The position numbers were made by a program, and so were the translations under genes. From a virus: a stretch of 64,000 nt of DNA. Under the pieces are notes generated by a model. It was not told the DNA's origin, ran no database searches, and saw only the letters and a program-made list of their open reading frames with translations. Where the stretch lies: the IMG/VR virus record IMGVR_UViG_3300045988_066443; one strand, given 5' to 3'. Positions 6,787 through 62,210 of this stretch are shown one piece after another (positions within the stretch are counted from its first letter, which is position 1; each line of letters begins with the position of its first letter).

Positions 6787-7978
6787 AATCGCGAATACAT
6801 TTTAGTACAGGTTGCAATGGAGTACCTTCATCAGACAGATAGAAATACTTAACAGTAGCCATCTTTCCTATCAGCTCCTTAAGTCTTTCCCTATATTGTT
6901 GTTTAAGTTCTCTAGAACCCATTGGTTTAGCTTTAAATTCTATACCATCTTCTGTTATTAGCGTAAAACACATATCTTCTTCCCGAAGACCTTCTGATAA
7001 ACCAGTAATTTCAAACTCTGCATCTTTGTAGAATTTAAATTTTAGCATATCATTAGTACGCTTGCCGAAGCCATACTCTTTATCTGGATTTCTACATACT
7101 ACTCCTTCCCAACCTTCTGAAACATATTGGTTGTGCAGTTTCATAATATTCTCGTACCCAGAGACCTTTTCCTGCGGGACTATTTGCAATTGTAACTCAC
7201 CCTCTTCCCAATCTTTATCTGGATTAAATCCAAGATTAAGTTCTTTCTGAAGCTGCTTAAGAATTTCAAGCCTATCAGAGAACTTCATACTAGGAATCAT
7301 TATATCGTAAACATAATATTCAAGCCAGTCGCAGTCAACTGCGTTTTTCTCAAGACGAGCTGCTCCACTGATTTGTTGGAGACTTTTACCATGTCTATAC
7401 AACTCTCCATCAAGAATGTAAGTGGGATGATTCCTGAAGAACTCAAGCAATCTCTCATTGTTTCGGATATGGCTTGTTGAATAGTCATAATTTCCCCCAC
7501 CTCTGGAAGCAGATAGAATCTCACCGTCCTTATAGTAGAAGGAACACCTAACTCCATCAATTTTTCTGCTAGCATACCAATACTTAACCTTATTGATTGA
7601 GGATTCCTTAACTTTATCTGCAGATTTTGCAAGCATGTGCTTTGCAAATCCATTCTGGTCGGTTTTAATGTCTCCATAAAATTCTTCCAATTGAGTTTCG
7701 CTATAAGTTTCGGGATCGTTCTCTAGCTCCTTGTAACCCTTATCTAAATATTTCTTAAGCTCAGACTTAAACTGCAACTCAAGTTGTTCTCTATGCGTTC
7801 TACCAGCTTTTCCTTTAGTAATGACTATTTCTGGTTGCTCTGTCATCTTTCCATGTAGCTGTCCTGTAACTCTATTAATTACAAATCCAGCTTTTTCTTC
7901 ATCCCACTGTTCTGTAGTAGATAAATATACAACTCTAAATTTGCCAGTTGAGGCTTTGCTTAACAAATATTTAATCAT
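6779..7978 (-). CDS. ATP-dependent DNA ligase
   Basis: 399 aa; motif I YASRKIDGVRCSF (KxDGxR). Confidence 0.75.
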   Translation of the reverse strand: MIKYLLSKASTGKFRVVYLSTTEQWDEEKAGFVINRVTGQLHGKMTEQPEIVITKGKAGRTHREQLELQFKSELKKYLDKGYKELENDPETYSETQLEEFYGDIKTDQNGFAKHMLAKSADKVKESSINKVKYWYASRKIDGVRCSFYYKDGEILSASRGGGNYDYSTSHIRNNERLLEFFRNHPTYILDGELYRHGKSLQQISGAARLEKNAVDCDWLEYYVYDIMIPSMKFSDRLEILKQLQKELNLGFNPDKDWEEGELQLQIVPQEKVSGYENIMKLHNQYVSEGWEGVVCRNPDKEYGFGKRTNDMLKFKFYKDAEFEITGLSEGLREEDMCFTLITEDGIEFKAKPMGSRELKQQYRERLKELIGKMATVKYFYLSDEGTPLQPVLKCIRDYE

Positions 7979-8192
7979 GAATAGTTACCTTATAATCATC
8001 ATAGTCTAATACATCATCTAGTCCACTGTAGTCATATTCATTCTCGATTAAGGTTTTCAAAAGCTCTTCATCGCTAACGAACTCTTCCTCTATATATTTC
8101 TTTAGCCATTCTTCCTGTAAATCTTCTCCTAATACAATATTTTTGTGTACTGTAATAGTGACTACTTTCTTTTTAAGTTCTTCTAGTGTCAT
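7971..8192 (-). CDS. hypothetical acidic protein (73 aa)
   Basis: ORF. Confidence 0.3.
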   Translation of the reverse strand: MTLEELKKKVVTITVHKNIVLGEDLQEEWLKKYIEEEFVSDEELLKTLIENEYDYSGLDDVLDYDDYKVTIHD

Positions 8193-8557
8193 TTCTGATA
8201 GTCCTTAACTAAGTTCCACAAATCATCTATAGTATCAGTAGGAATTATATTTCCGTCTTCATCATAAGCTTCATTAGGAAGACTATTTTTGAATAGTCCA
8301 GGCTTCTCAAATAACCACCAATTAACCCAGTCCACTCCTTCATCAGAGAACAATTCCGGAAGTACCGTATTTAAGAATCCCCAACCTAGTTCGGATATAG
8401 GAAGTTCAAACAAATCAATTCCAAAATCAGACCATCTATCCAATTCCTTAGAATAGTTCTGAGCATTTTCAATAAGCTTTACAAATCCTTCTTTAGTCAT
8501 AGTAGTAATTATTTTAATATTCTTTTTGTAATATCTGTCTTCCAACCGCAATCGCAC
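8189..8557 (-). CDS. hypothetical protein (122 aa)
   Basis: ORF. Confidence 0.35.
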   Translation of the reverse strand: MRLRLEDRYYKKNIKIITTMTKEGFVKLIENAQNYSKELDRWSDFGIDLFELPISELGWGFLNTVLPELFSDEGVDWVNWWLFEKPGLFKNSLPNEAYDEDGNIIPTDTIDDLWNLVKDYQK

Positions 8558-8829
8558 TCCTCGGCTGCTATCTTAAATGATTCCTCTAGGTCTCCACTTT
8601 CCATATACTCTGCAATTAATATATCAGTGTCTACATCGTATTTATCAACAATTCTTTCAGTGACTATTTTAACTGCAACACCTTCGAGTTCGTCATAGAT
8701 AACATCTTCCAACTTACTCATTAATTCATCCCATTCATCACTTAGTTTAGCTGTGGTAGACTTGCTGTCTTCTTCTCTCATAGCTTCTTCGAGTTCTAAT
8801 ATTTTAGACCTCAATTCCCCTTTAGTCAT
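8509..8829 (-). CDS. hypothetical protein (106 aa)
   Basis: ORF. Confidence 0.35.
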   Translation of the reverse strand: MTKGELRSKILELEEAMREEDSKSTTAKLSDEWDELMSKLEDVIYDELEGVAVKIVTERIVDKYDVDTDILIAEYMESGDLEESFKIAAEECDCGWKTDITKRILK

Positions 8830-37466: not shown

Positions 37467-37940
37467 TTTTCTTAATTTAAATTAGTTAATAATCATTTTA
37501 TCTATCAAAAAAAAGAGTGGTTCCAGTATCTGTGCTTCACCAGATACTTTCCCCACTCCTATCACTCCGAAGAGCTTGTACCATTATTAGGTTGGTCAAC
37601 CTCCCTCTTCATCTTGTTGAGAATTTGGGATAATAGTCACCAAGTTTAAAGATTACTTGTAACTGAAGCAAAAGGCTAGAATCCCGAAGGGATTCCGTAA
37701 CTCCTTCAACACGTGGTTGACGAGCTATGTAGGAAGCTAACGCGCAGGCAAAGATGAAGCCGTAGTCAAAGACCTAGCTACACTAACAAAGACTAAGACA
37801 AAGACTCTCAATTAGAGAGTAGGTTGTAAATTTTTGTGTAGCCAGCGAATAAAGATTAAATCCATGCGGATTTAAGAATATACTGTTCATAATTATTCCT
37901 GTTAAGTATGTTATGTTAGCTTCCTACGGAAGTCCTCTAA

Positions 37941-39057: not shown

Positions 39058-39694
39058 TTACTCTGGAAGTATGCCGTACTTCCATATGTAGCCATAAGCA
39101 TGGGTTATTTTATGATTGCAACAATCGGTGATATGTCTTTTGCAATTAACAGTTTTTGCTAGACCATTATCTACAAGCCATTGAGCTGCTTCTTCTCTTC
39201 CCCAGAAGTGCTATATATAATTGCCAGCCATATCAAATTGATCAATTTTCTTAGCAGACCCACCTCTGATTTTAATGTCATGAGCTTTCAATACTTTTCT
39301 TACAGTATCATCACTACATCCCACTTTCTCCGCAACTTTTTTTGCAAGTATATCCCATATTGTACAGTTCGATTATCTCTTGATAATCGTATAACTATGT
39401 TCCGTCACCACCCTTAGTAGCATTATAGCCTTTGGAGCCATAAGTTTCCAACTCTTTTATCCAATATACCTCTCTTTCTGAAAGTATGTTTTCGTCCTTT
39501 ACATATTCTAATTCCTCTACTATAAAGTTTTCAACTCCATATTTATTCATAGCATCATATAATGGACGTTTTTCACATCTTTCTTTTCGAGAATCCTTGC
39601 AGTGTTCCTAAAATCTTTCCTATATAGTAAAGAGGGTTTTACCAACGTATCTTTTATTGTTAATAATATTTGTAATGCAATAGATATATCCCAT
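39058..39694 (-). CDS. GIY-YIG homing endonuclease; intact only if 4 in-frame TAG codons are sense and one frame correction is made at an A7 run
   Basis: minus-strand translation MGYIYCITNIINNKRYVGKTLFTI[TAG]ERF[TAG]EHCKDSRKERCEKRPLYDAMNKYGVENFIVEELEYVKDENILSEREVYWIKELETYGSKGYNATKGGDGT[TAG]LYDYQEIIELYNMGYTCKK / frame change at aaaaaaa / VAEKVGCSDDTVRKVLKAHDIKIRGGSAKKIDQFDMAGNYI[TAG]HFWGREEAAQWLVDNGLAKTVNCKRHITDCCNHKITHAYGYIWKYGILPE*; no TAA/TGA internally. Confidence 0.5.
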
Positions 39695-39782
39695 ATCATA
39701 GACTATTTATAACATTATTAATAATTGATTGAATTAGCTTTACCCAAAACACACCACGTGGAGGTTTCAATCTTGTGTTTCT

Positions 39783-46205: not shown

Positions 46206-46757
46206 TTAATCCAGACTAATTAAACCTTTCTCTAACATGATATGATGATTTGGACATAGCCATACTAAGTTAGCTTCATCATTAATCTCTTTGATTAGAG
46301 TATCTTTGTCAAATTCAAGTATTCCTTTTAGATGATGAACTTCGAGTATTTCATCAAATTCGTGATTATGGCAGTATTGACATACTTTTTCACGAACGGA
46401 ATTTTCTAATACCTTACGGGCATTAGTTCTTATTTCTTGACATTTAGACGATAAGTACTTTTGTCCAGATATGTAATATCCCAATGTTTTATTTTCTACT
46501 CCATTGAGTTCTTCCCAGCATTTACGACATATTTCTGAATCTTTATGCTTAGGTTTACCACATCTAGGACAAATCTTGTCCTCACTATGCTTAGCTCTAC
46601 TTCTATTATTATAGGAGGCAGCACAGGAATGACTACAGAATTGTTTCTTCCTTACGTCTGTGATTCTCTGATTATCTAGTACTTCGATTACCTTACCACA
46701 TTCTTTACAGTGATTAGGATTCTCATAATACAACTTAAGAGATTGTTCTCGGTTCAC
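46206..46757 (-). CDS. HNH endonuclease
   Basis: 183 aa; Zn-finger Cys pairs; HNH motif EVHHLKG...NLVWLCPNHHIMLE. Confidence 0.65.
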   Translation of the reverse strand: MNREQSLKLYYENPNHCKECGKVIEVLDNQRITDVRKKQFCSHSCAASYNNRSRAKHSEDKICPRCGKPKHKDSEICRKCWEELNGVENKTLGYYISGQKYLSSKCQEIRTNARKVLENSVREKVCQYCHNHEFDEILEVHHLKGILEFDKDTLIKEINDEANLVWLCPNHHIMLEKGLISLD

Positions 46758-46895
46758 AGATAGATTTAATTTAGTTTTAATGACAGTGTGATATGCAAGC
46801 CATTACACCACAGCCTCGAAAATGCAGGTATTTATCTCGTTACACCTGCGAGTCCGGCAATCCTTTCTTATATACCGCGTGAGCTGGCGGTTTTG

Positions 46896-46969
46896 TAGGG
46901 CTAATCAGACTTGAACTGATAACCTCCACATTATCAGTGTGGCGCTCTAACCAGTTGAGCTATAGCCCT
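46896..46969 (-). tRNA. tRNA-Ile (anticodon GAT)
   Basis: AGGGCTATAGCTCAACTGGTTAGAGCGCCACACTGATAATGTGGAGGTTATCAGTTCAAGTCTGATTAGCCCTA; perfect stems; loop CTGATAA. Confidence 0.85.
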
Positions 46970-47058
46970 ATTTCTCTTTGTACCACCGTGCAAAATGCAC
47001 ATTTGTAAGTATCTTTATATCAGGATACCTCCCGTGCCAGGAATTGCTACAAAGAATG

Positions 47059-47621
47059 TGGACCTAACGGGAGTCGAACCCGTGTCCAAACAACCCTCGT
47101 TACAAGGATAACGTGCGTCTCATTTTTATTACACCAGCTAGGGAGTTCTAGCATTTAGGTAGTTTTATAAGTCTTACAAGAGTCCATACTAAGTATTTCT
47201 CTAGATGCTTATCTACAAGCTACCAAACTATAGGGCTGACCGAAGTCAACGTTCCACCACTCCATTTTACGTTGGAGAACGGGATGATACTTTAGAGATT
47301 CGTCACATCTCATGGAACACATCTTCCATCTGTTTTATGACATAGGAGATTCAGTCTTACTAACTCTTAGAGTGTTCCGATTAAGAGTATATTACTAGGA
47401 TTAGAGCCTAGCTCTCCATTATATCAATATACTCAACCTCTTCTGTTTCTAGGTCTCTCCTGTAACCCGACTTAGTTAATAGTGTCTACCAACAAGCCAG
47501 CAGCTTAGGCTGCCATTCTTACTTCGCTATAAGTAGCATTTATTGTTTTTCCTTCGTTTAAAGAGATTGCGCTCTACACGTCCTTATAATTTGTAATCGC
47601 CTGTCAAATCCAAGTAGGCCC
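47059..47621 (-). ncRNA. ssrA: tmRNA (ssrA-like transfer-messenger RNA)
   Basis: 563-nt ORF-free span. 5' end GGGCCTACTTGGATTTGACAGG matches the tmRNA 5' consensus GGGGCUGAUUCUGGAUUCGACGGG. 3' end GGACACGGGTTCGACTCCCGTTAGGTCCA is a tRNA-like T-arm. 7-bp acceptor pairing carries the G3-U70 alanine identity pair and discriminator A73. Candidate tag ORF ...AAU|GCU ACU UAU AGC GAA GUA AGA AUG GCA GCC UAA (ATYSEVRMAA). Confidence 0.7.
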
Positions 47622-47661
47622 ATACCCAGTTTATCTTTAATTAGAAAACTGGAAAAAGAAA

Positions 47662-47913
47662 TTATAACATTATAGTTGTACCCTCAGGTAGTGTTCGTAA
47701 CTTAGTATTAGTATAGTCTCTAGCACCCTTACTAAATATCTCAGGATAGTAAGAACAACTTCCTAATATAAATAGTGCAAGTCCACATCTTTGAATTATA
47801 TCTCCGTTAGATACTGTTCCATCCTCAAACCATTCTATCACTTCTGCAAATTCTCCATCCTTTAGGTCTTTAAGTTGGATTATATCAGAGGCCCTATTTA
47901 CTACTTTTGCCAT
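47662..47913 (-). CDS. hypothetical protein (83 aa)
   Basis: ORF. Confidence 0.35.
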   Translation of the reverse strand: MAKVVNRASDIIQLKDLKDGEFAEVIEWFEDGTVSNGDIIQRCGLALFILGSCSYYPEIFSKGARDYTNTKLRTLPEGTTIML

Positions 47914-49506: not shown

Positions 49507-49579
49507 TGGACACGCAGGGACTCGAACCCTATCTTCCGGTGTGCAAAACCAGCGCTCTAGCCATTTGAGCTAACGGCCC
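49507..49579 (-). tRNA. tRNA-Ala (anticodon TGC), acceptor stem imperfect
   Basis: GGGCCGTTAGCTCAAATGGCTAGAGCGCTGGTTTTGCACACCGGAAGATAGGGTTCGAGTCCCTGCGTGTCCA; loop TTTGCAC; G3-U70 present but base pairs 5-7 do not pair with 66-68. Confidence 0.5.
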
Positions 49580-51141: not shown

Positions 51142-51158
51142 AGGATTATTTCCAAATA
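51142..51158 (-). repeat. 17-nt duplicate of the 3' end of the CAT tRNA-like gene (tgcggaggtaggatt)
   Basis: matches 51867-51883; lies just past the stop of the second GIY-YIG gene. Confidence 0.6.
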
Positions 51159-51205
51159 AATTTATATGCAGTTTTCAATTTCCCTTTTACACATAAACTA
51201 ATCTT

Positions 51206-51781
51206 CTAGCGAACACCTCCATTATAAGTTTTAGCATAACCATTGTCTACTAACCAGTGTGCAGCATCGGCTATACTGTTCCAAGTCCTGATAAAGTTAT
51301 TATTTAAATCATACTGAGATATTGATACAGGTTGCTTGCAACTTCCCAAATAAAATTTGTTCTTTGGTATATTGTTTATATTTATTACTTTAGAAACTGT
51401 ATCAACAGAACATTGCATTTTGGCGGAAACTTCAATCATTGTCATTCCGCTAGTATATAAAGATATTATTTCTTTATAATCGAATAAGATAGCTCCATCG
51501 CCTCCCATAGTAGCATTATAGCCATTTGAGTATGTGTCTAGCTTATCTATAAATTGAATTTCATAAGAAGCTAATTCCTCATCATCACATTCATACAGCT
51601 ACTCAACTATGAAGTTCTCGATCCCATACTTGTTCATAGCATCATATAGCGGCCTCTTTTCACATCTTTCCTTCTTGCAATCATTACAATGTTCTTTAAA
51701 TCTCTTAGTTACAGAATAAGTAGTTTTTCCAACATACTATTTTCCATTAATTAAATTTGTAATACAATAAATATATCCCAT
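51206..51781 (-). CDS. GIY-YIG homing endonuclease; full length only if 2 in-frame TAG codons are read as sense
   Basis: MGYIYCITNLINGK[TAG]YVGKTTYSVTKRFKEHCNDCKKERCEKRPLYDAMNKYGIENFIVE[TAG]LYECDDEELASYEIQFIDKLDTYSNGYNATMGGDGAILFDYKEIISLYTSGMTMIEVSAKMQCSVDTVSKVININNIPKNKFYLGSCKQPVSISQYDLNNNFIRTWNSIADAAHWLVDNGYAKTYNGGVR*. Single frame throughout. The first TAG (51737-51739) lies between the GIY and YVG motifs. Confidence 0.55.
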
Positions 51782-51865
51782 GTTCTATTCTTATTTAAAA
51801 TTAAACATATTAGTAAGATTAGCGTTATCCAACTCACACCACGTGGAGGTTCTTACTTGTGAGTC

Positions 51866-52158: not shown

Positions 52159-52244
52159 GTGACTACTTCTCCACCCCGTAAGACTAGCTATTCGGAGATA
52201 AGACCAGTTACAACTTGTAACTGCTGTGGAGCCTTGTTTCGTCG

Positions 52245-52326
52245 TTCCGATTAAAGGATTTGAACCTCTGACCTCCCACTAATGCTTTATTGGTATGGGC
52301 GCTCTACCATACTGAGCTAAATCGGA
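52245..52326 (-). tRNA. tRNA-like gene with an 8-nt-expanded anticodon arm (15-nt loop); anticodon unassignable
   Basis: TCCGATTTAGCTCAGTATGGTAGAGCG-CCCAT-ACCAATAAAGCATTA-GTGGG-AGGTCAGAGGTTCAAATCCTTTAATCGGAA; perfect acceptor, D and T arms. Confidence 0.35.
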
Positions 52327-61654: not shown

Positions 61655-62210
61655 ATTATAATGAAACCTTATATTTATCCCAATCACTGGTTAATGTCAA
61701 GGCTCCTTTAACATTTATTTCACTTGAGGGAATCTCATACATGTCCCCAGTTATAACTACTACAAATACTACATCACAAGTAGAATTATCAAAATGTCTA
61801 ATCTTAGAATCTCCAGATGAACCTCCGCAATTCTTCAACAAGACTTCATAATTTCCACTCTTTACCTAATGTTGAGTAGTTTTAACTGATACTCTCTTCA
61901 AACCCTCTTTATCTACTACAATGTCATATTTCTATGTATCATTCAAGGGAATTAGGACCGGAATGCAATGAGCAGTATAGTATGCTATAGCTCTTCCTAG
62001 TCCTAAATTCCCTTGATGAGATTTATACTAACTTTCCCAAGCGTTCATTTTTTACAAAATTTGTATTAGATTTTCATCTTTACGATTACATTAAACCTGA
62101 CTCTGCCACCCTTCCAAAAGCTAGTCTTATGACTAGCTAAGAATCATACCAAGAAGCAATAATACACAGAATATAGCTAGAATACACCAGCCTATAGCCT
62201 GGATTGCTCC

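What the first reader, a model, noticed from the sequence alone, without database searches (positions are those of the whole stretch)
47059..47621. Phage-encoded tmRNA (ssrA) inside the tRNA array
A 563-nt ORF-free stretch has a 5' end GGGCCUACUUGGAUUUGACAGG that matches the tmRNA 5' consensus GGGGCUGAUUCUGGAUUCGACGGG. Its 3' end is a canonical T-arm (ACGGG-UUCGACU-CCCGU) followed by UAGGUCC-A. The two ends form a 7-bp acceptor stem containing the G3-U70 alanine identity pair, with discriminator A73. A plausible tag reading frame starts about 100 nt in (GCU ACU UAU AGC GAA GUA AGA AUG GCA GCC UAA, giving ATYSEVRMAA), ending in the Ala-Ala-stop typical of ssrA tags. The length exceeds the usual 350 to 420 nt. 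tmRNAs are rare in phages. Here it sits beside the TAG-readthrough signal, where ribosomes stalled at inefficiently decoded ambers would need rescue.
Basis: partly seen in the sequence, partly recalled or inferred. Interest (0 to 1): 0.75.

Follow-up and report, generated by a model that had tools for sequence, protein, structure and literature searches.

The report
Oversized phage tmRNA in tRNA array
The stretch is a genuine, conserved phage gene for tmRNA (the RNA that frees stalled ribosomes and tags their unfinished proteins); phage tmRNAs are already known, but at 563 nt this one is unusually large and the standard tmRNA finder misses it.

Summary
Window 47059-47621 (minus strand) is a real one-piece tmRNA gene. 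Rfam RF00023 matches end to end (62.5 bits, threshold 47, E 5e-22). The ends fold into a 7-bp acceptor stem with G3-U70 and discriminator A, plus a T-arm and a long helix 2. The tag frame reads ATYSEVRMAA-stop, with the stop in the helix-5 loop.

About 47 related gut-phage contigs (mostly 95-200 kb) carry homologues of 514-601 nt. Across 17 of them, 94.8% of modelled pairs hold (37-47% in shifted controls), with 31 compensatory pairs. Ten tag variants all end in RMAA-stop.

ARAGORN misses the gene only because of its length. About 100 extra nt sit inside an expanded pseudoknot 2, whose closing helix covaries, and about 60 more follow it.

No SmpB gene was found nearby.

Ordinary genes here use the standard code. 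Three homing-endonuclease-type genes are interrupted only by TAG. Two relatives carry a tRNA(CUA). A rescue role at amber codons is untested.

Verdict: new variant of a known kind; moderate interest.

The parts
47059..47621 (-). Complete one-piece (standard-form) tmRNA gene, 563 nt from G1 to discriminator A. CCA is not encoded; CAU follows.
   Evidence: Rfam RF00023 62.5 bits, gathering score 47, model 1-374. Homologues in about 47 phage contigs. Structure supported by covariation.
47615..47621 (-). Acceptor stem, 5' strand GGGCCUA (RNA 1-7). G3 pairs with U70.
   Evidence: Pairs with 47060-47066. G3-U70 is invariant in 17/17 sequences, while pairs 5-7 vary and stay paired: GGGCCUA/UAGGUCC, GGGCCAU/AUGGUCC, GGGCUUG/CAGGUCC, GGGCCUG/CAGGUCC.
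47059..47066 (-). Acceptor stem, 3' strand UAGGUCC, plus discriminator A (RNA 556-563).
47067..47083 (-). T-arm ACGGG-UUCGACU-CCCGU (RNA 539-555).
   Evidence: Four T-stem variants, all fully paired (ACGGG/CCCGU, GAGGG/CCCUC, CGCGG/CCGCG, GGCGG/CCGCC). Three of 5 pairs show compensatory change.
47576..47603 (-). Helix 2, 5' strand (RNA 19-46). It replaces the anticodon arm.
   Evidence: Pairs with RNA 506-535. 23 pairs, 95-100% paired, 10 of them with compensatory changes (helices 2-4).
47087..47116 (-). Helix 2, 3' strand (RNA 506-535).
47562..47575 (-). Pseudoknot 1 region, a hairpin AGAG/CUCU (RNA 47-60). The second stem is weak in this lineage.
   Evidence: Invariant 4-bp stem. Relatives have a 7-8 bp stem and a possible 3-bp second stem that changes GCA/UGC to GUA/UAC (read by eye from the sequences).
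47505..47537 (-). Tag reading frame: GCU resume codon through UAA, encoding ATYSEVRMAA*.
   Evidence: The frame, the resume context U-A-R-N-U | G, and the RMAA-stop ending are kept in 10 tag variants, with synonymous last-Ala codons and UAA or UGA stops.
47500..47513 (-). Helix 5 (GCAGC/GCUGC), with the tag stop codon in its 4-nt loop.
   Evidence: helix 6, 95% paired.
47451..47498 (-). Pseudoknot 2, 5' part (RNA 124-171): an outer stem, a covarying hairpin 129-135/141-147, and stem GGGUU/GACCU whose loop carries GGAGA.
   Evidence: helices 7-8 (5 pairs with compensatory change).
47350..47450 (-). Expansion segment inside pseudoknot 2 (RNA 172-272). It holds the invariant A-rich AGAAACAGAAGAGG, then a lineage-specific hairpin (RNA 188-237) enclosing a small H-type pseudoknot, then the conserved island UUAAUCGGAAC...GUUAGUAAGACUGAA.
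   Evidence: About 210 nt of insertion relative to the Rfam model. The closing hairpin has different sequences in four lineages but stays paired. Many indels.
47345..47349 (-). UCUCC (RNA 273-277), the 3' strand of the long-range second stem of pseudoknot 2. It pairs with GGAGA at RNA 162-166.
   Evidence: 92.9% paired, 2 compensatory pairs (helix 9). An alignment-free check finds 5-6 bp in all 15 distinct variants: GGAGA/UCUCC, GGAAGG/CCUUCC, GGAAGG/CCUUUC, GGAGAA/UUCUCC, with a flanking pair that changes A-U, U-A, G-U.
47282..47344 (-). Second variable segment (RNA 278-340), lineage-specific hairpins between pseudoknots 2 and 3.
   Evidence: Present, absent or resized among lineages.
47230..47281 (-). 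Pseudoknot 3 (RNA 341-392): an H-type knot CGU/ACG with CUCC/GGAG, then GGUGG, a hairpin and CCC.
   Evidence: helices 10-13 (compensatory changes in both stems). The same GGUGGUGGAG-hairpin-CC motif occurs in other phage tmRNAs, L012 and L022.
47137..47229 (-). Last (pseudoknot-4-like) domain, closed by RNA 394-402/460-469, plus hairpin GCUAG/CUAGC (RNA 470-485).
   Evidence: helices 14-15. The interior is highly variable. The knot pairing was not resolved.
46895..46969 (-). tRNA-Ile(GAU), the next gene downstream. The tmRNA lies within a co-oriented array of 21-22 tRNA genes.
   Evidence: The same tmRNA then tRNA-Ile order is seen in relatives.

Best explanation
This is a functional, phage-encoded, standard one-piece tmRNA (ssrA) gene.

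Shown here: the RNA has every sequence and structure hallmark of tmRNA. It is kept under purifying selection on both its structure and its tag reading frame across a clade of roughly 95-200 kb human-gut phage contigs. It is 140-180 nt longer than the largest classical tmRNAs. About 100 of the extra nt lie inside an expanded pseudoknot 2, and about 60 more lie in variable hairpins before pseudoknot 3.

Inferred from established tmRNA biology: the gene is transcribed with the tRNA array. The 5' end is cut by RNase P (U at -1). CCA is added by the host enzyme. The RNA is charged with alanine by host AlaRS through G3-U70 and A73, and delivered with host SmpB and EF-Tu to ribosomes stalled without a usable A-site codon. 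Translation then resumes on GCU and adds (A)ATYSEVRMAA, and terminates at the UAA in the helix-5 loop. The ribosome is released and the product carries a phage-specified C-terminal tag.

The likely benefit is to keep ribosomes available during infection, alongside the phage's own tRNA set, while marking truncated products with a tag (RMAA) that differs from the ALAA tag of Bacteroidota tmRNAs. The host is probably Bacteroidota; this is circumstantial.
For: - Rfam tmRNA hit over the full model: 62.5 bits against a threshold of 47. Relatives score 56-96 bits.
- The minimum-energy fold joins the ends into the tRNA-like domain.
- On 17 diverse homologues, 94.8% of cells are paired, against 37-47% when partners are slid by 1-3 columns. 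31 pairs show compensatory change, against 7-11 in slid controls. 0 of 500 shuffles reach the observed values.
- G3-U70 and discriminator A are invariant while neighbouring acceptor and T-stem pairs covary.
- Ten tag variants keep the frame, the resume context and the RMAA-stop ending. The last Ala codon varies synonymously (GCC/GCG/GCU) and the stop is UAA or UGA.
- The stop codon sits in the helix-5 loop.
- ARAGORN returns the same tag once the middle is shortened.
- The long-range pseudoknot-2 helix covaries.
- The gene keeps the same place in the tRNA array in relatives.
- Phage tmRNAs are an established category (PMC7162821, PMC9004378; annotated SsrA in Stenotrophomonas phage Yut3).
Against: - There are no expression, aminoacylation or tagging data.
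- No SmpB gene was found among 106 ORFs of the window or 104 ORFs flanking relatives, so function depends on an unidentified host SmpB accepting this RNA. About two thirds of the genome was not seen.
- The second stem of pseudoknot 1 is weak in this lineage, and the pseudoknot-4 pairing was not resolved.
- The score is modest for a tmRNA (62.5 bits, against 84-131 for other tmRNAs), mainly because of the roughly 210-nt insertion.
- It is not known whether the expansion stays in the mature RNA.
- Host assignment to Bacteroidota is circumstantial: helicase relatives in Flavobacterium and Bacteroides phages, OmpA and crAss001_48-like domains, and the intron site in L147.
Confidence: 0.85

Rival explanations
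1. The gene contains an intervening sequence. The roughly 150-200 nt middle segment would be removed after transcription, by an unrecognised intron or by RNase III-type cleavage of the strong closing hairpin. The mature tmRNA would then be of normal size, or in two pieces.
For: The gene is about 140 nt longer than the longest classical one-piece tmRNA (425 nt, PMC1168896). A 500-bp cut-off was used to pick out intron forms (PMC11915505), and that paper says introns outside the T-loop may have been missed. The middle is hypervariable, with a 9-11 bp closing hairpin. A relative (L147) really does carry a group I intron, but in the T-loop.
Against: No intron or other RNA family matches the middle even at E up to 1. 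The extra length is spread over several indel sites, not one insertion. Conserved islands inside it pair with the flanking pseudoknot-2 loop and covary, which argues that the segment is part of the folded RNA. All 32 distinct family members extracted are 514-601 nt long; none is of normal length.
Confidence: 0.08
2. The RNA acts mainly as a decoy or inhibitor of host trans-translation. It would occupy host SmpB, AlaRS or ribosomes rather than carry out productive tagging, as reported for the CDS-less tmRNA-like RNA of mycobacteriophage DS6A.
For: A precedent is cited in PMC11915505. No phage SmpB was found. The large expansions could hinder passage through the ribosome.
Against: A complete tag frame with the canonical resume context, a stop codon in the helix-5 loop and a conserved RMAA ending is kept across 10 variants, with synonymous changes. 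A pure decoy would not need this.
Confidence: 0.04
3. One reading: the tmRNA exists chiefly to rescue ribosomes stalled at inefficiently decoded in-frame TAG codons of a phage that reassigns or reads through amber.
For: Three endonuclease-type genes in the window are interrupted only by TAG: 51149-51790, 39061-39706 and 61659-62051. Relatives L141 and L142, which carry the same tmRNA family, encode a tRNA(CUA) in the array. In RF1-deleted E. coli, stalls at UAG are resolved partly by tmRNA (PMC6207430).
Against: All 106 ordinary ORFs are intact under the standard code, and TAG-terminated ORFs continue for only 2-19 codons. The 64-kb window holds no suppressor tRNA. With host RF1 active, TAG terminates rather than stalls. 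tmRNA acts on ribosomes with an empty A site, not on intact mRNA. The family is found both in the lineage with tRNA(CUA) in the stretches examined and in lineages without one there.
Confidence: 0.08
4. The stretch is a non-functional relic: a captured host ssrA gene or an attachment-site remnant that is decaying.
For: The 3' 30-38 nt are 93-97% identical to tmRNAs of Paludibacter, Roseburia and others. tmRNA 3' ends are common integration sites. One copy (L134) has lost its 3' acceptor strand.
Against: The gene is full length and conserved in about 47 contigs, with compensatory changes and an intact tag frame. No bacterial genome recovered in the end-pattern scan shares the RNA body. The only 'bacterial' hit, L114, has the phage gene order and is a mis-binned phage contig.
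Confidence: 0.02

Closest known systems
Bacterial standard one-piece tmRNA (SsrA; Rfam RF00023)
   Same: A tRNA-Ala-like domain with G3-U70 and A73, a T-arm, and helix 2 in place of the anticodon arm. An internal tag frame that resumes on GCN and ends in Ala-Ala-stop inside the helix-5 loop. Pseudoknots flank the frame. The Rfam score is above threshold.
   Different: It is 563 nt (family 514-601 nt), against about 350 typical and 250-425 in the classical alignment (PMC1168896). Pseudoknot 2 carries about 100 nt of inserted hairpins. Extra variable hairpins precede pseudoknot 3. The second stem of pseudoknot 1 is weak. The acceptor starts GGGCC rather than the usual GGGG. The tag ends RMAA rather than LAA. 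It is encoded by a phage, and no adjacent smpB was found.
Previously reported phage-encoded tmRNAs: huge phages (PMC7162821), 402 of 18,146 phage genomes by ARAGORN including the two-piece Melnitz ssrA (PMC9004378), and the annotated SsrA beside tRNA-Leu in Stenotrophomonas phage Yut3. Other IMG/VR phages L006, L008, L012, L022 and L032 also carry one.
   Same: A tmRNA gene carried by a large phage, placed in or next to a tRNA array, with a full tag frame. An internal GGUGGUGGAG-hairpin-CC motif is shared with L012 and L022.
   Different: Those are 345-420 nt and ARAGORN detects them with correct tags. This family is 514-601 nt and ARAGORN misses it or gives a wrong tag. Its tags share a distinct RMAA ending.
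Intron-form tmRNA genes, with a group I intron in the T-loop (PMC11915505)
   Same: Gene length above 500 bp. One clade member, L147, has a group I intron (94 bits) between the 2nd and 3rd T-loop nucleotides, with U at -1 and a terminal G. By my reading of that paper's numbering this is subsite 3, which it reports only from Bacteroidia.
   Different: The window's T-loop (UUCGACU) is uninterrupted. Its extra length lies in the pseudoknot region and matches no intron model.
Permuted two-piece tmRNA (Rfam RF04321)
   Same: Shares the tRNA-like domain and the tag frame.
   Different: The gene order here is the standard one: 5' acceptor, then tag, then T-arm and 3' acceptor. RF04321 scores only 23.4 bits against a threshold of 47.

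Membership tests
tmRNA, standard one-piece form (RF00023) | Covariance-model score at or above the curated gathering score | tested here: met
   62.5 bits against 47, model positions 1-374 of 374, E 4.8e-22. Thirteen relatives score 56-96 bits.
tmRNA, standard one-piece form (RF00023) | The 5' and 3' ends form a 7-bp acceptor stem with G3-U70 and an A discriminator (alanine identity) | tested here: met
   GGGCCUA/UAGGUCC-A. G3-U70 in 17/17 sequences. Pairs 6 and 7 change on both sides and stay paired.
tmRNA, standard one-piece form (RF00023) | T-arm with a GGUUCGAnUCC-type loop; no anticodon arm; a long helix 2 links the tRNA-like domain to the body | tested here: met
   T-stem 100% paired, with 3 compensatory pairs. 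Helix 2 has 23 pairs, 10 of them compensatory. Also recovered by the minimum-energy fold and by RNAalifold.
tmRNA, standard one-piece form (RF00023) | Internal tag frame: G-starting resume codon after a conserved U-A upstream context, ending in Ala-Ala-stop, with the stop in the helix-5 loop | tested here: met
   ATYSEVRMAA*. Ten variants keep the frame, the context and RMAA-stop. Helix 5 is 95% paired. Gly resume codons in two lineages match known usage (PMC1168896).
tmRNA, standard one-piece form (RF00023) | Four pseudoknots (PK1-PK4) around the tag frame | tested here: inconclusive
   PK2 (with a long-range second stem) and PK3 are supported by covariation. PK1 is a hairpin with at most a 2-3 bp second stem in this lineage. 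The PK4 region forms a closed domain, but its knot pairing was not resolved. At least one additional small pseudoknot is predicted by eye inside the expansion.
tmRNA, standard one-piece form (RF00023) | Typical size (about 350 nt; 250-425 nt in the classical alignment) | tested here: not met
   563 nt; family 514-601 nt. Size is descriptive rather than defining, so this makes it a variant and does not exclude membership.
tmRNA, standard one-piece form (RF00023) | Works with SmpB; is charged by AlaRS; tags nascent peptides | not testable with these tools
   No SmpB domain among 106 window ORFs or 104 ORFs flanking relatives. Host SmpB is presumed. This needs biochemistry.
Intron-form tmRNA gene | Group I intron interrupting the T-loop | tested here: not met
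   The T-loop UUCGACU is intact, and no Intron_gpI hit is found in 46980-47700 at E up to 1. It is met in relative L147.
Permuted two-piece tmRNA (RF04321) | Circularly permuted gene order and a model score at or above threshold | tested here: not met
   23.4 bits against 47, and the hit covers only the 5' 150 nt. The gene order is standard.
tRNA-Ala | Cloverleaf with D-arm and anticodon arm, about 76 nt | tested here: not met
   No tRNA is called here by ARAGORN or the Rfam tRNA model. 531 nt separate the acceptor 5' strand from the T-arm.

The most novel reading that the evidence does not exclude
This clade of roughly 180-190 kb gut phages may run its own customised trans-translation system. 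The oversized tmRNA's expansion modules would recruit phage-specific or host-specific partners. Its invariant RMAA tag would send rescued products to a fate different from that of the host ALAA tag. The system might work together with conditional amber readthrough (TAG-interrupted homing-endonuclease genes here, tRNA(CUA) in relatives) to manage ribosomes that stall when termination at TAG is suppressed. On size alone, the family would include the largest standard-form tmRNAs I could find reported, and with L147 (about 1.45 kb) a tmRNA gene longer than the 1,152-bp maximum reported in PMC11915505.
Probability: 0.12. Interest if true: 0.75.

Novelty: new variant of a known kind. Interest (0 to 1): 0.45.

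Why it matters
- **Annotation blind spot.** ARAGORN-based surveys miss or mis-tag this whole family because of length. These include the huge-phage survey, the 2.3% phage estimate and the main protocol of the 97,179-sequence tmRNA database. tmRNA frequency in large gut phages is therefore probably underestimated.
- **Size and architecture.** The family extends the known range of one-piece tmRNA. About 100 nt of hairpins are tolerated inside pseudoknot 2, which bears on how tmRNA threads through the ribosome.
- **A testable tag.** The invariant RMAA ending, set against variable upstream residues, is a concrete handle. It can be used to ask whether phages redirect the fate of rescued proteins.
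- **Link to recoding.** The family co-occurs with TAG-only-interrupted endonuclease genes, and with suppressor tRNAs in relatives. This gives a defined system for testing links between stop-codon recoding and ribosome rescue.

None of this overturns current understanding. It is an informative variant, not a new kind of system.

Tried and rejected
- **ARAGORN** on the window and on the region finds nothing. This was traced to a length limit, not to lack of signal.
- **Brute-force column-pair scan** for conserved helices on alignment A1 was swamped by G-U-rich chance helices in invariant regions and was abandoned.
- **tmRNA database supplements** (PMC11915505) were searched for the tags and the 5' sequence. 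Only 3 small files are held and nothing was found. A find call with 2-letter terms failed.
- **Donor search.** It returned only terminal 30-38 nt similarity in Lachnospiraceae, Vicinamibacterales, Paludibacteraceae and CPR, plus one mis-binned phage contig. Identity at the 5' and 3' ends (0.59-0.73) does not discriminate between candidate donors.
- **SmpB or other rescue factors.** None was found in the window or in flanks of relatives.
- **Promoter and terminator scan.** No convincing sigma-70-type signals. The 'terminators' found are internal tmRNA hairpins. Bacteroidota-type promoters are not covered by the tool.
- **First TAG-readthrough test.** Looking for adjacent segments of at least 60 aa split by one stop was negative and would have been misleading. 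A finer test found the TAG-interrupted endonuclease genes. Aggregate ORF-length gain under TAG-as-sense was ambiguous.
- **Candidate pairings not kept.** I looked by eye, on the sequences printed, for a pairing between the invariant AACAGAAGAGG and the last domain. It is present in some lineages and absent in others, so I rejected it. The register of the small hairpin at RNA 249-260 is ambiguous between lineages and was left out of the tested structure.
- **Taxonomic placement.** This failed. The closest annotated relatives of the helicase are only 24-45% identical, and the 671-aa protein is widespread. The resemblance to zeta crAss-like phages (PMC12386605) is one of lifestyle only.
- **The metagenome scan** was not used, because IMG/VR already gave enough diversity.
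Full report
**1. Observation**

On the minus strand, window 47621 to 47059 reads GGGCCUACUUGGAUUUGACAGG ... The Rfam tmRNA model RF00023 matches 47056-47621 on the minus strand at 62.5 bits (gathering score 47). The E-value is 4.8e-22 for the whole window, and the match covers all 374 model positions. The alignment puts the resume codon at GCU. Translating 47505-47537 (minus strand) gives ATYSEVRMAA*.

The minimum-energy fold of the 563-nt RNA on its own pairs the two ends. It forms the 7-bp acceptor stem, the T-arm and a long helix 2 (z = -2.1). ARAGORN finds nothing here. When RNA positions 187-340 are deleted in silico, it calls a tmRNA with exactly that tag. The miss is therefore a length limit.

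**2. What genome this is**

All genes in the window lie on the minus strand, and GC content is 36%. The content is:
- nucleotide metabolism and replication genes: NrdD, NAMPT, DNA and RNA ligases, helicases, dUTPase, RNase H;
- an OmpA-like protein and a crAss001_48-like protein;
- 21-22 tRNA genes.

The only close GenBank relatives are unannotated human-faecal 'Bacteriophage sp.' fragments. The helicase's nearest cultured relatives are Flavobacterium and Bacteroides phages. IMG/VR homologues sit on contigs that cluster at about 185-192 kb. This is an uncultured large gut phage, probably of a Bacteroidota host. The host assignment is an inference.

**3. Family and conservation**

Three IMG/VR pattern scans (3' end, 5' end, internal pseudoknot-2 motif) recovered the element on about 47 contigs. 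One further copy, L114, lies on a contig binned into a 'Clostridium sp.' MAG. That contig has the phage gene order around the tmRNA, so it is a mis-binned phage contig.

I extracted 32 distinct sequences, 514-601 nt long. All relatives tested pass the Rfam threshold, at 56-96 bits.

In the close lineages the 5' 70 nt and the 3' 110 nt are invariant. The middle is full of indels, with conserved islands. More distant members supply the variation needed to test structure. There are four acceptor-stem versions, all keeping G3-U70 and the A discriminator, and four T-stem versions.

On a 17-sequence alignment, an explicit structure of 93 pairs gives:

| Measure | Observed | Partners slid 1-3 columns |
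|---|---|---|
| Cells forming a standard pair | 94.8% | 37-47% |
| Pairs with compensatory change | 31 | 7-11 |

None of 500 shuffles reaches the observed pairing or covariation score. Helix 2 alone has 10 compensatory pairs.

**4. The tag**

Ten tag variants occur: ATYSEVRMAA, AAYSEVRMAA, ANYSEVRMAA, AEIAPVRMAA, AEIDYNRMAA, AERSEYRMAA, ATTSVRMAA, ANTSVRMAA, GNTEVRMAA and GNTTYRMAA. In all of them:
- the frame resumes on a G-starting codon after U-A-R-N-U;
- the peptide ends in Arg-Met-Ala-Ala;
- the last Ala codon varies synonymously (GCC, GCG, GCU);
- the stop is UAA or UGA and sits in the helix-5 loop.

This is the signature of selection on a translated tag with a constrained C-terminal end. 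My script also printed a longer reading (EGKTIN...). It is an artefact: single-base indels in the A-rich leader break that upstream frame in other lineages. The Bacteroidota tmRNAs recovered for comparison end in ALAA (GENNYALAA), so the phage tag is distinct.

**5. Why it is so long**

The Rfam alignment shows about 210 nt inserted relative to the model. No Rfam family matches the middle at E up to 1; there is no group I intron there.

The hairpin GGGUU/GACCU (RNA 154-171) carries GGAGA in its loop. This pairs with UCUCC at RNA 273-277, about 110 nt downstream. The helix is present in every lineage and changes in a compensatory way: GGAGA/UCUCC, GGAAGG/CCUUCC, GGAAGG/CCUUUC, GGAGAA/UUCUCC. 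A flanking pair switches between A-U, U-A and G-U.

So about 100 nt (RNA 172-272) lie inside an expanded pseudoknot 2. This stretch contains:
- an invariant A-rich run, AGAAACAGAAGAGG;
- a lineage-specific hairpin whose 6-11 bp closing stem differs completely in sequence between four lineages. By eye it encloses a small H-type pseudoknot: AGAG-CUAGG-CUCU-AAU-CCUAG in the window, and CGU-G-CGG-ACG-AUAAU-CCG in L013;
- a conserved island.

A further 60 nt or so (RNA 278-340) of variable hairpins precede an H-type pseudoknot 3, whose two stems covary. Pseudoknot 3 shares a GGUGGUGGAG-hairpin-CC motif with other phage tmRNAs.

Classical one-piece tmRNAs span 250-425 nt (PMC1168896). The 2025 database paper used more than 500 bp as a criterion for intron forms (PMC11915505). 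This family lies outside the usual range. I could not check the full database, so 'largest known standard form' remains a probable statement, not a proven one.

**6. Origin**

The single genome-contig scan looked for the shared 3' end in representative genomes of 185,579 species. It found only terminal similarity of 30-38 nt, in Lachnospiraceae, Vicinamibacterales, Paludibacteraceae, CPR and others. The Paludibacter tmRNA also shares the GGGCCU..UUGG.UUUGACAG 5' motif. Overall end identity does not single out a donor. This is not a recent capture from any genome recovered by that pattern.

**7. Mechanism**

Shown here: the anatomy of a canonical tmRNA, and selection on both its structure and its tag.

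Inferred from established tmRNA biology:
- co-transcription with the tRNA array. No sigma-70-type signals were found, and Bacteroidota promoters are not covered by the tool;
- 5' maturation by RNase P (U at -1);
- CCA addition, since CAU follows the discriminator;
- alanylation through G3-U70 and A73;
- delivery by SmpB and EF-Tu;
- a switch of template to GCU, and termination at UAA.

No SmpB was found in the window or in the flanks of relatives, so host SmpB is presumed. A role in sustaining ribosome availability alongside the phage tRNA set is the simplest reading. This matches what has been proposed for other phage tmRNAs (PMC7162821, PMC9004378).

**8. The TAG question**

Under the standard code, 86% of the window is ORF and 3.6% is RNA genes. 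The four ORFs that end in TAG continue in frame for only 2-19 codons. There is no tRNA(CUA) in the window.

However, reading TAG as sense fills several otherwise empty gaps, while reading TGA as sense fills almost none. The frames that fill the gaps are:
- two paralogous GIY-YIG homing-endonuclease genes, at 51149-51790 and 39061-39706;
- a gene at 61659-62051 that looks like a PD-(D/E)XK endonuclease. This is my reading of its motifs; the window ORF itself was not scanned, although a PDDEXK_5 domain was hit in one ORF of a related locus.

These are interrupted only by TAG, 3-5 times each. The TAGs are conserved in 96-99% identical relatives. In paralogues or orthologues the same positions hold sense codons for Arg, Glu, Gln, Lys, Tyr, Asp or Leu. 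Two divergent relatives that carry the same tmRNA family have a tRNA(CUA) in the array (L141, L142).

So a TAG-readthrough signal exists, but it is confined to mobile endonuclease genes here. Any functional link to the tmRNA is speculative. With release factor 1 active, TAG terminates translation rather than stalling it.

**9. Comparison and novelty**

Phage tmRNAs are known: about 2.3% of phage genomes by ARAGORN (PMC9004378), and huge phages (PMC7162821). The two crAss-like papers that discuss suppressor tRNAs never mention tmRNA. The zeta paper, which describes large gut phages with tRNA blocks and many homing endonucleases, also has no occurrence of 'transfer-messenger'.

The main protocol of the tmRNA database used ARAGORN and BLASTN hits. 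The only viral genomes it covered were RefSeq viruses (PMC11915505). This family would therefore have been missed. In the 515-nt lineage, ARAGORN reports a wrong tag, VQQKDDRATVLNLKAKG.

I classify it as a new variant of a known kind: same function class, unusual architecture and size, distinct tag.

**10. By-products**

- L147 carries an intron form of this tmRNA. A group I intron of about 865 nt lies between T-loop nucleotides 2 and 3. It contains an antisense ORF that looks like an HNH homing endonuclease by motif. The gene spans about 1.45 kb.
- L134 has a copy whose 3' acceptor strand is replaced.
- The locus is rich in freestanding homing endonucleases, including the HNH ORF at 46206-46757 just downstream of the tmRNA.

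**Verdict**

Interest is moderate (0.45).

Noticed in passing
window 51149-51790 (-), 39061-39706 (-), 61659-62051 (-): Two paralogous GIY-YIG homing-endonuclease genes and one gene that looks like a PD-(D/E)XK endonuclease are interrupted only by TAG (3-5 each), never by TAA or TGA. The TAGs are conserved in 96-99% identical relatives and correspond to sense codons (Arg, Glu, Gln, Lys, Tyr, Asp, Leu) in paralogues or orthologues. All ordinary ORFs are intact under the standard code. This suggests conditional amber readthrough restricted to mobile endonuclease genes.
   Followed up: partly
L141 1687-1760 (+); L142 2908-2980 (-): Divergent relatives carrying the same tmRNA family encode a tRNA with anticodon CUA (amber suppressor; ARAGORN labels it Pyl) in the tRNA array. 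The window's lineage shows none in the stretches examined.
   Followed up: partly
L147 7186-8633 (+): An intron form of this phage tmRNA. Exon 1 ends ...GACCGCGGUU at 7750. A group I intron follows at about 7751-8615 (Rfam Intron_gpI, 94 bits), lying between T-loop nucleotides 2 and 3, with U at -1 and a terminal G. It carries an antisense ORF of about 200 aa that looks like an HNH endonuclease by motif. Exon 2 is CGAGUCCGCGAUGGUCCA. The gene is about 1.45 kb, longer than the 1,152-bp maximum reported in PMC11915505. That paper reports this intron subsite only in Bacteroidia, by my reading of its numbering.
   Followed up: partly
L134 about 7390-7950 (+): This tmRNA copy diverges right after the T-stem (CCCGUU|GGCGUUACU...), so it lacks the 3' acceptor strand. 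A terminator-like hairpin follows. It may be a disrupted gene, an insertion or an assembly chimera.
   Followed up: no
window 46206-46757 (-): A freestanding HNH endonuclease ORF (Pfam HNH_2 plus a zinc ribbon) lies between tRNA-Asp and tRNA-Ile, just downstream of the tmRNA. The intron of L147 shares 68% nucleotide identity over about 320 nt with a stretch beside the tmRNA of L140.
   Followed up: partly
window 52244-52326 (-): ARAGORN calls this 'tRNA-Tyr(AUA)', but it looks aberrant. An alternative fold gives a 5-bp anticodon stem CCCAU/GUGGG around a 15-nt loop. It could be an intron-containing or otherwise unusual tRNA. It is conserved in relatives L005, L029 and L036.
   Followed up: partly
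window 49507-49579 (-): A tRNA-Ala(UGC)-like gene is found by Rfam only (39.5 bits). ARAGORN finds it only at relaxed settings, and its acceptor stem is imperfect. It begins GGGCC with G3-U70, like the tmRNA. It is conserved in L001, L003, L005 and L013.
   Followed up: partly
window 47626-47652 (-): A 7-bp hairpin, CCAGUUU-13 nt-AAACUGG, ends 4 nt upstream of the tmRNA 5' end, just after the stop codon of ORF 47662-47913. It could be a processing or termination signal.
   Followed up: no
L139 3252-3359; L141 8775-8872 and 285-358; L147 10164-10261; L137 10331-10435; L138 3518-3589; L006 8700-8759; L032 3551-3610: RAGATH-34 RNAs, a RAGATH-1 hammerhead ribozyme and Pistol ribozymes lie within a few kb of tmRNA genes in related or other phage loci. 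None reached threshold in the window itself.
   Followed up: no
L114 (CALEBD010000016.1, 'uncultured Clostridium sp.' MAG): This contig carries the phage tmRNA and the same flanking gene order as the window. It is a phage contig binned into a bacterial MAG, so the host label is unreliable.
   Followed up: yes
window 37467-37940: A 474-nt stretch has no standard-code ORF and no RNA-family hit. The only long frame needs three TAG readthroughs and gives a low-complexity, unconvincing peptide. The stretch is about 80% identical in relatives.
   Followed up: no
L003, L024, L045 (515-nt lineage): ARAGORN does call these tmRNAs but reports a spurious tag, VQQKDDRATVLNLKAKG**, from inside the pseudoknot region. 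The conserved frame gives ATYSEVRMAA with a UGA stop.
   Followed up: yes
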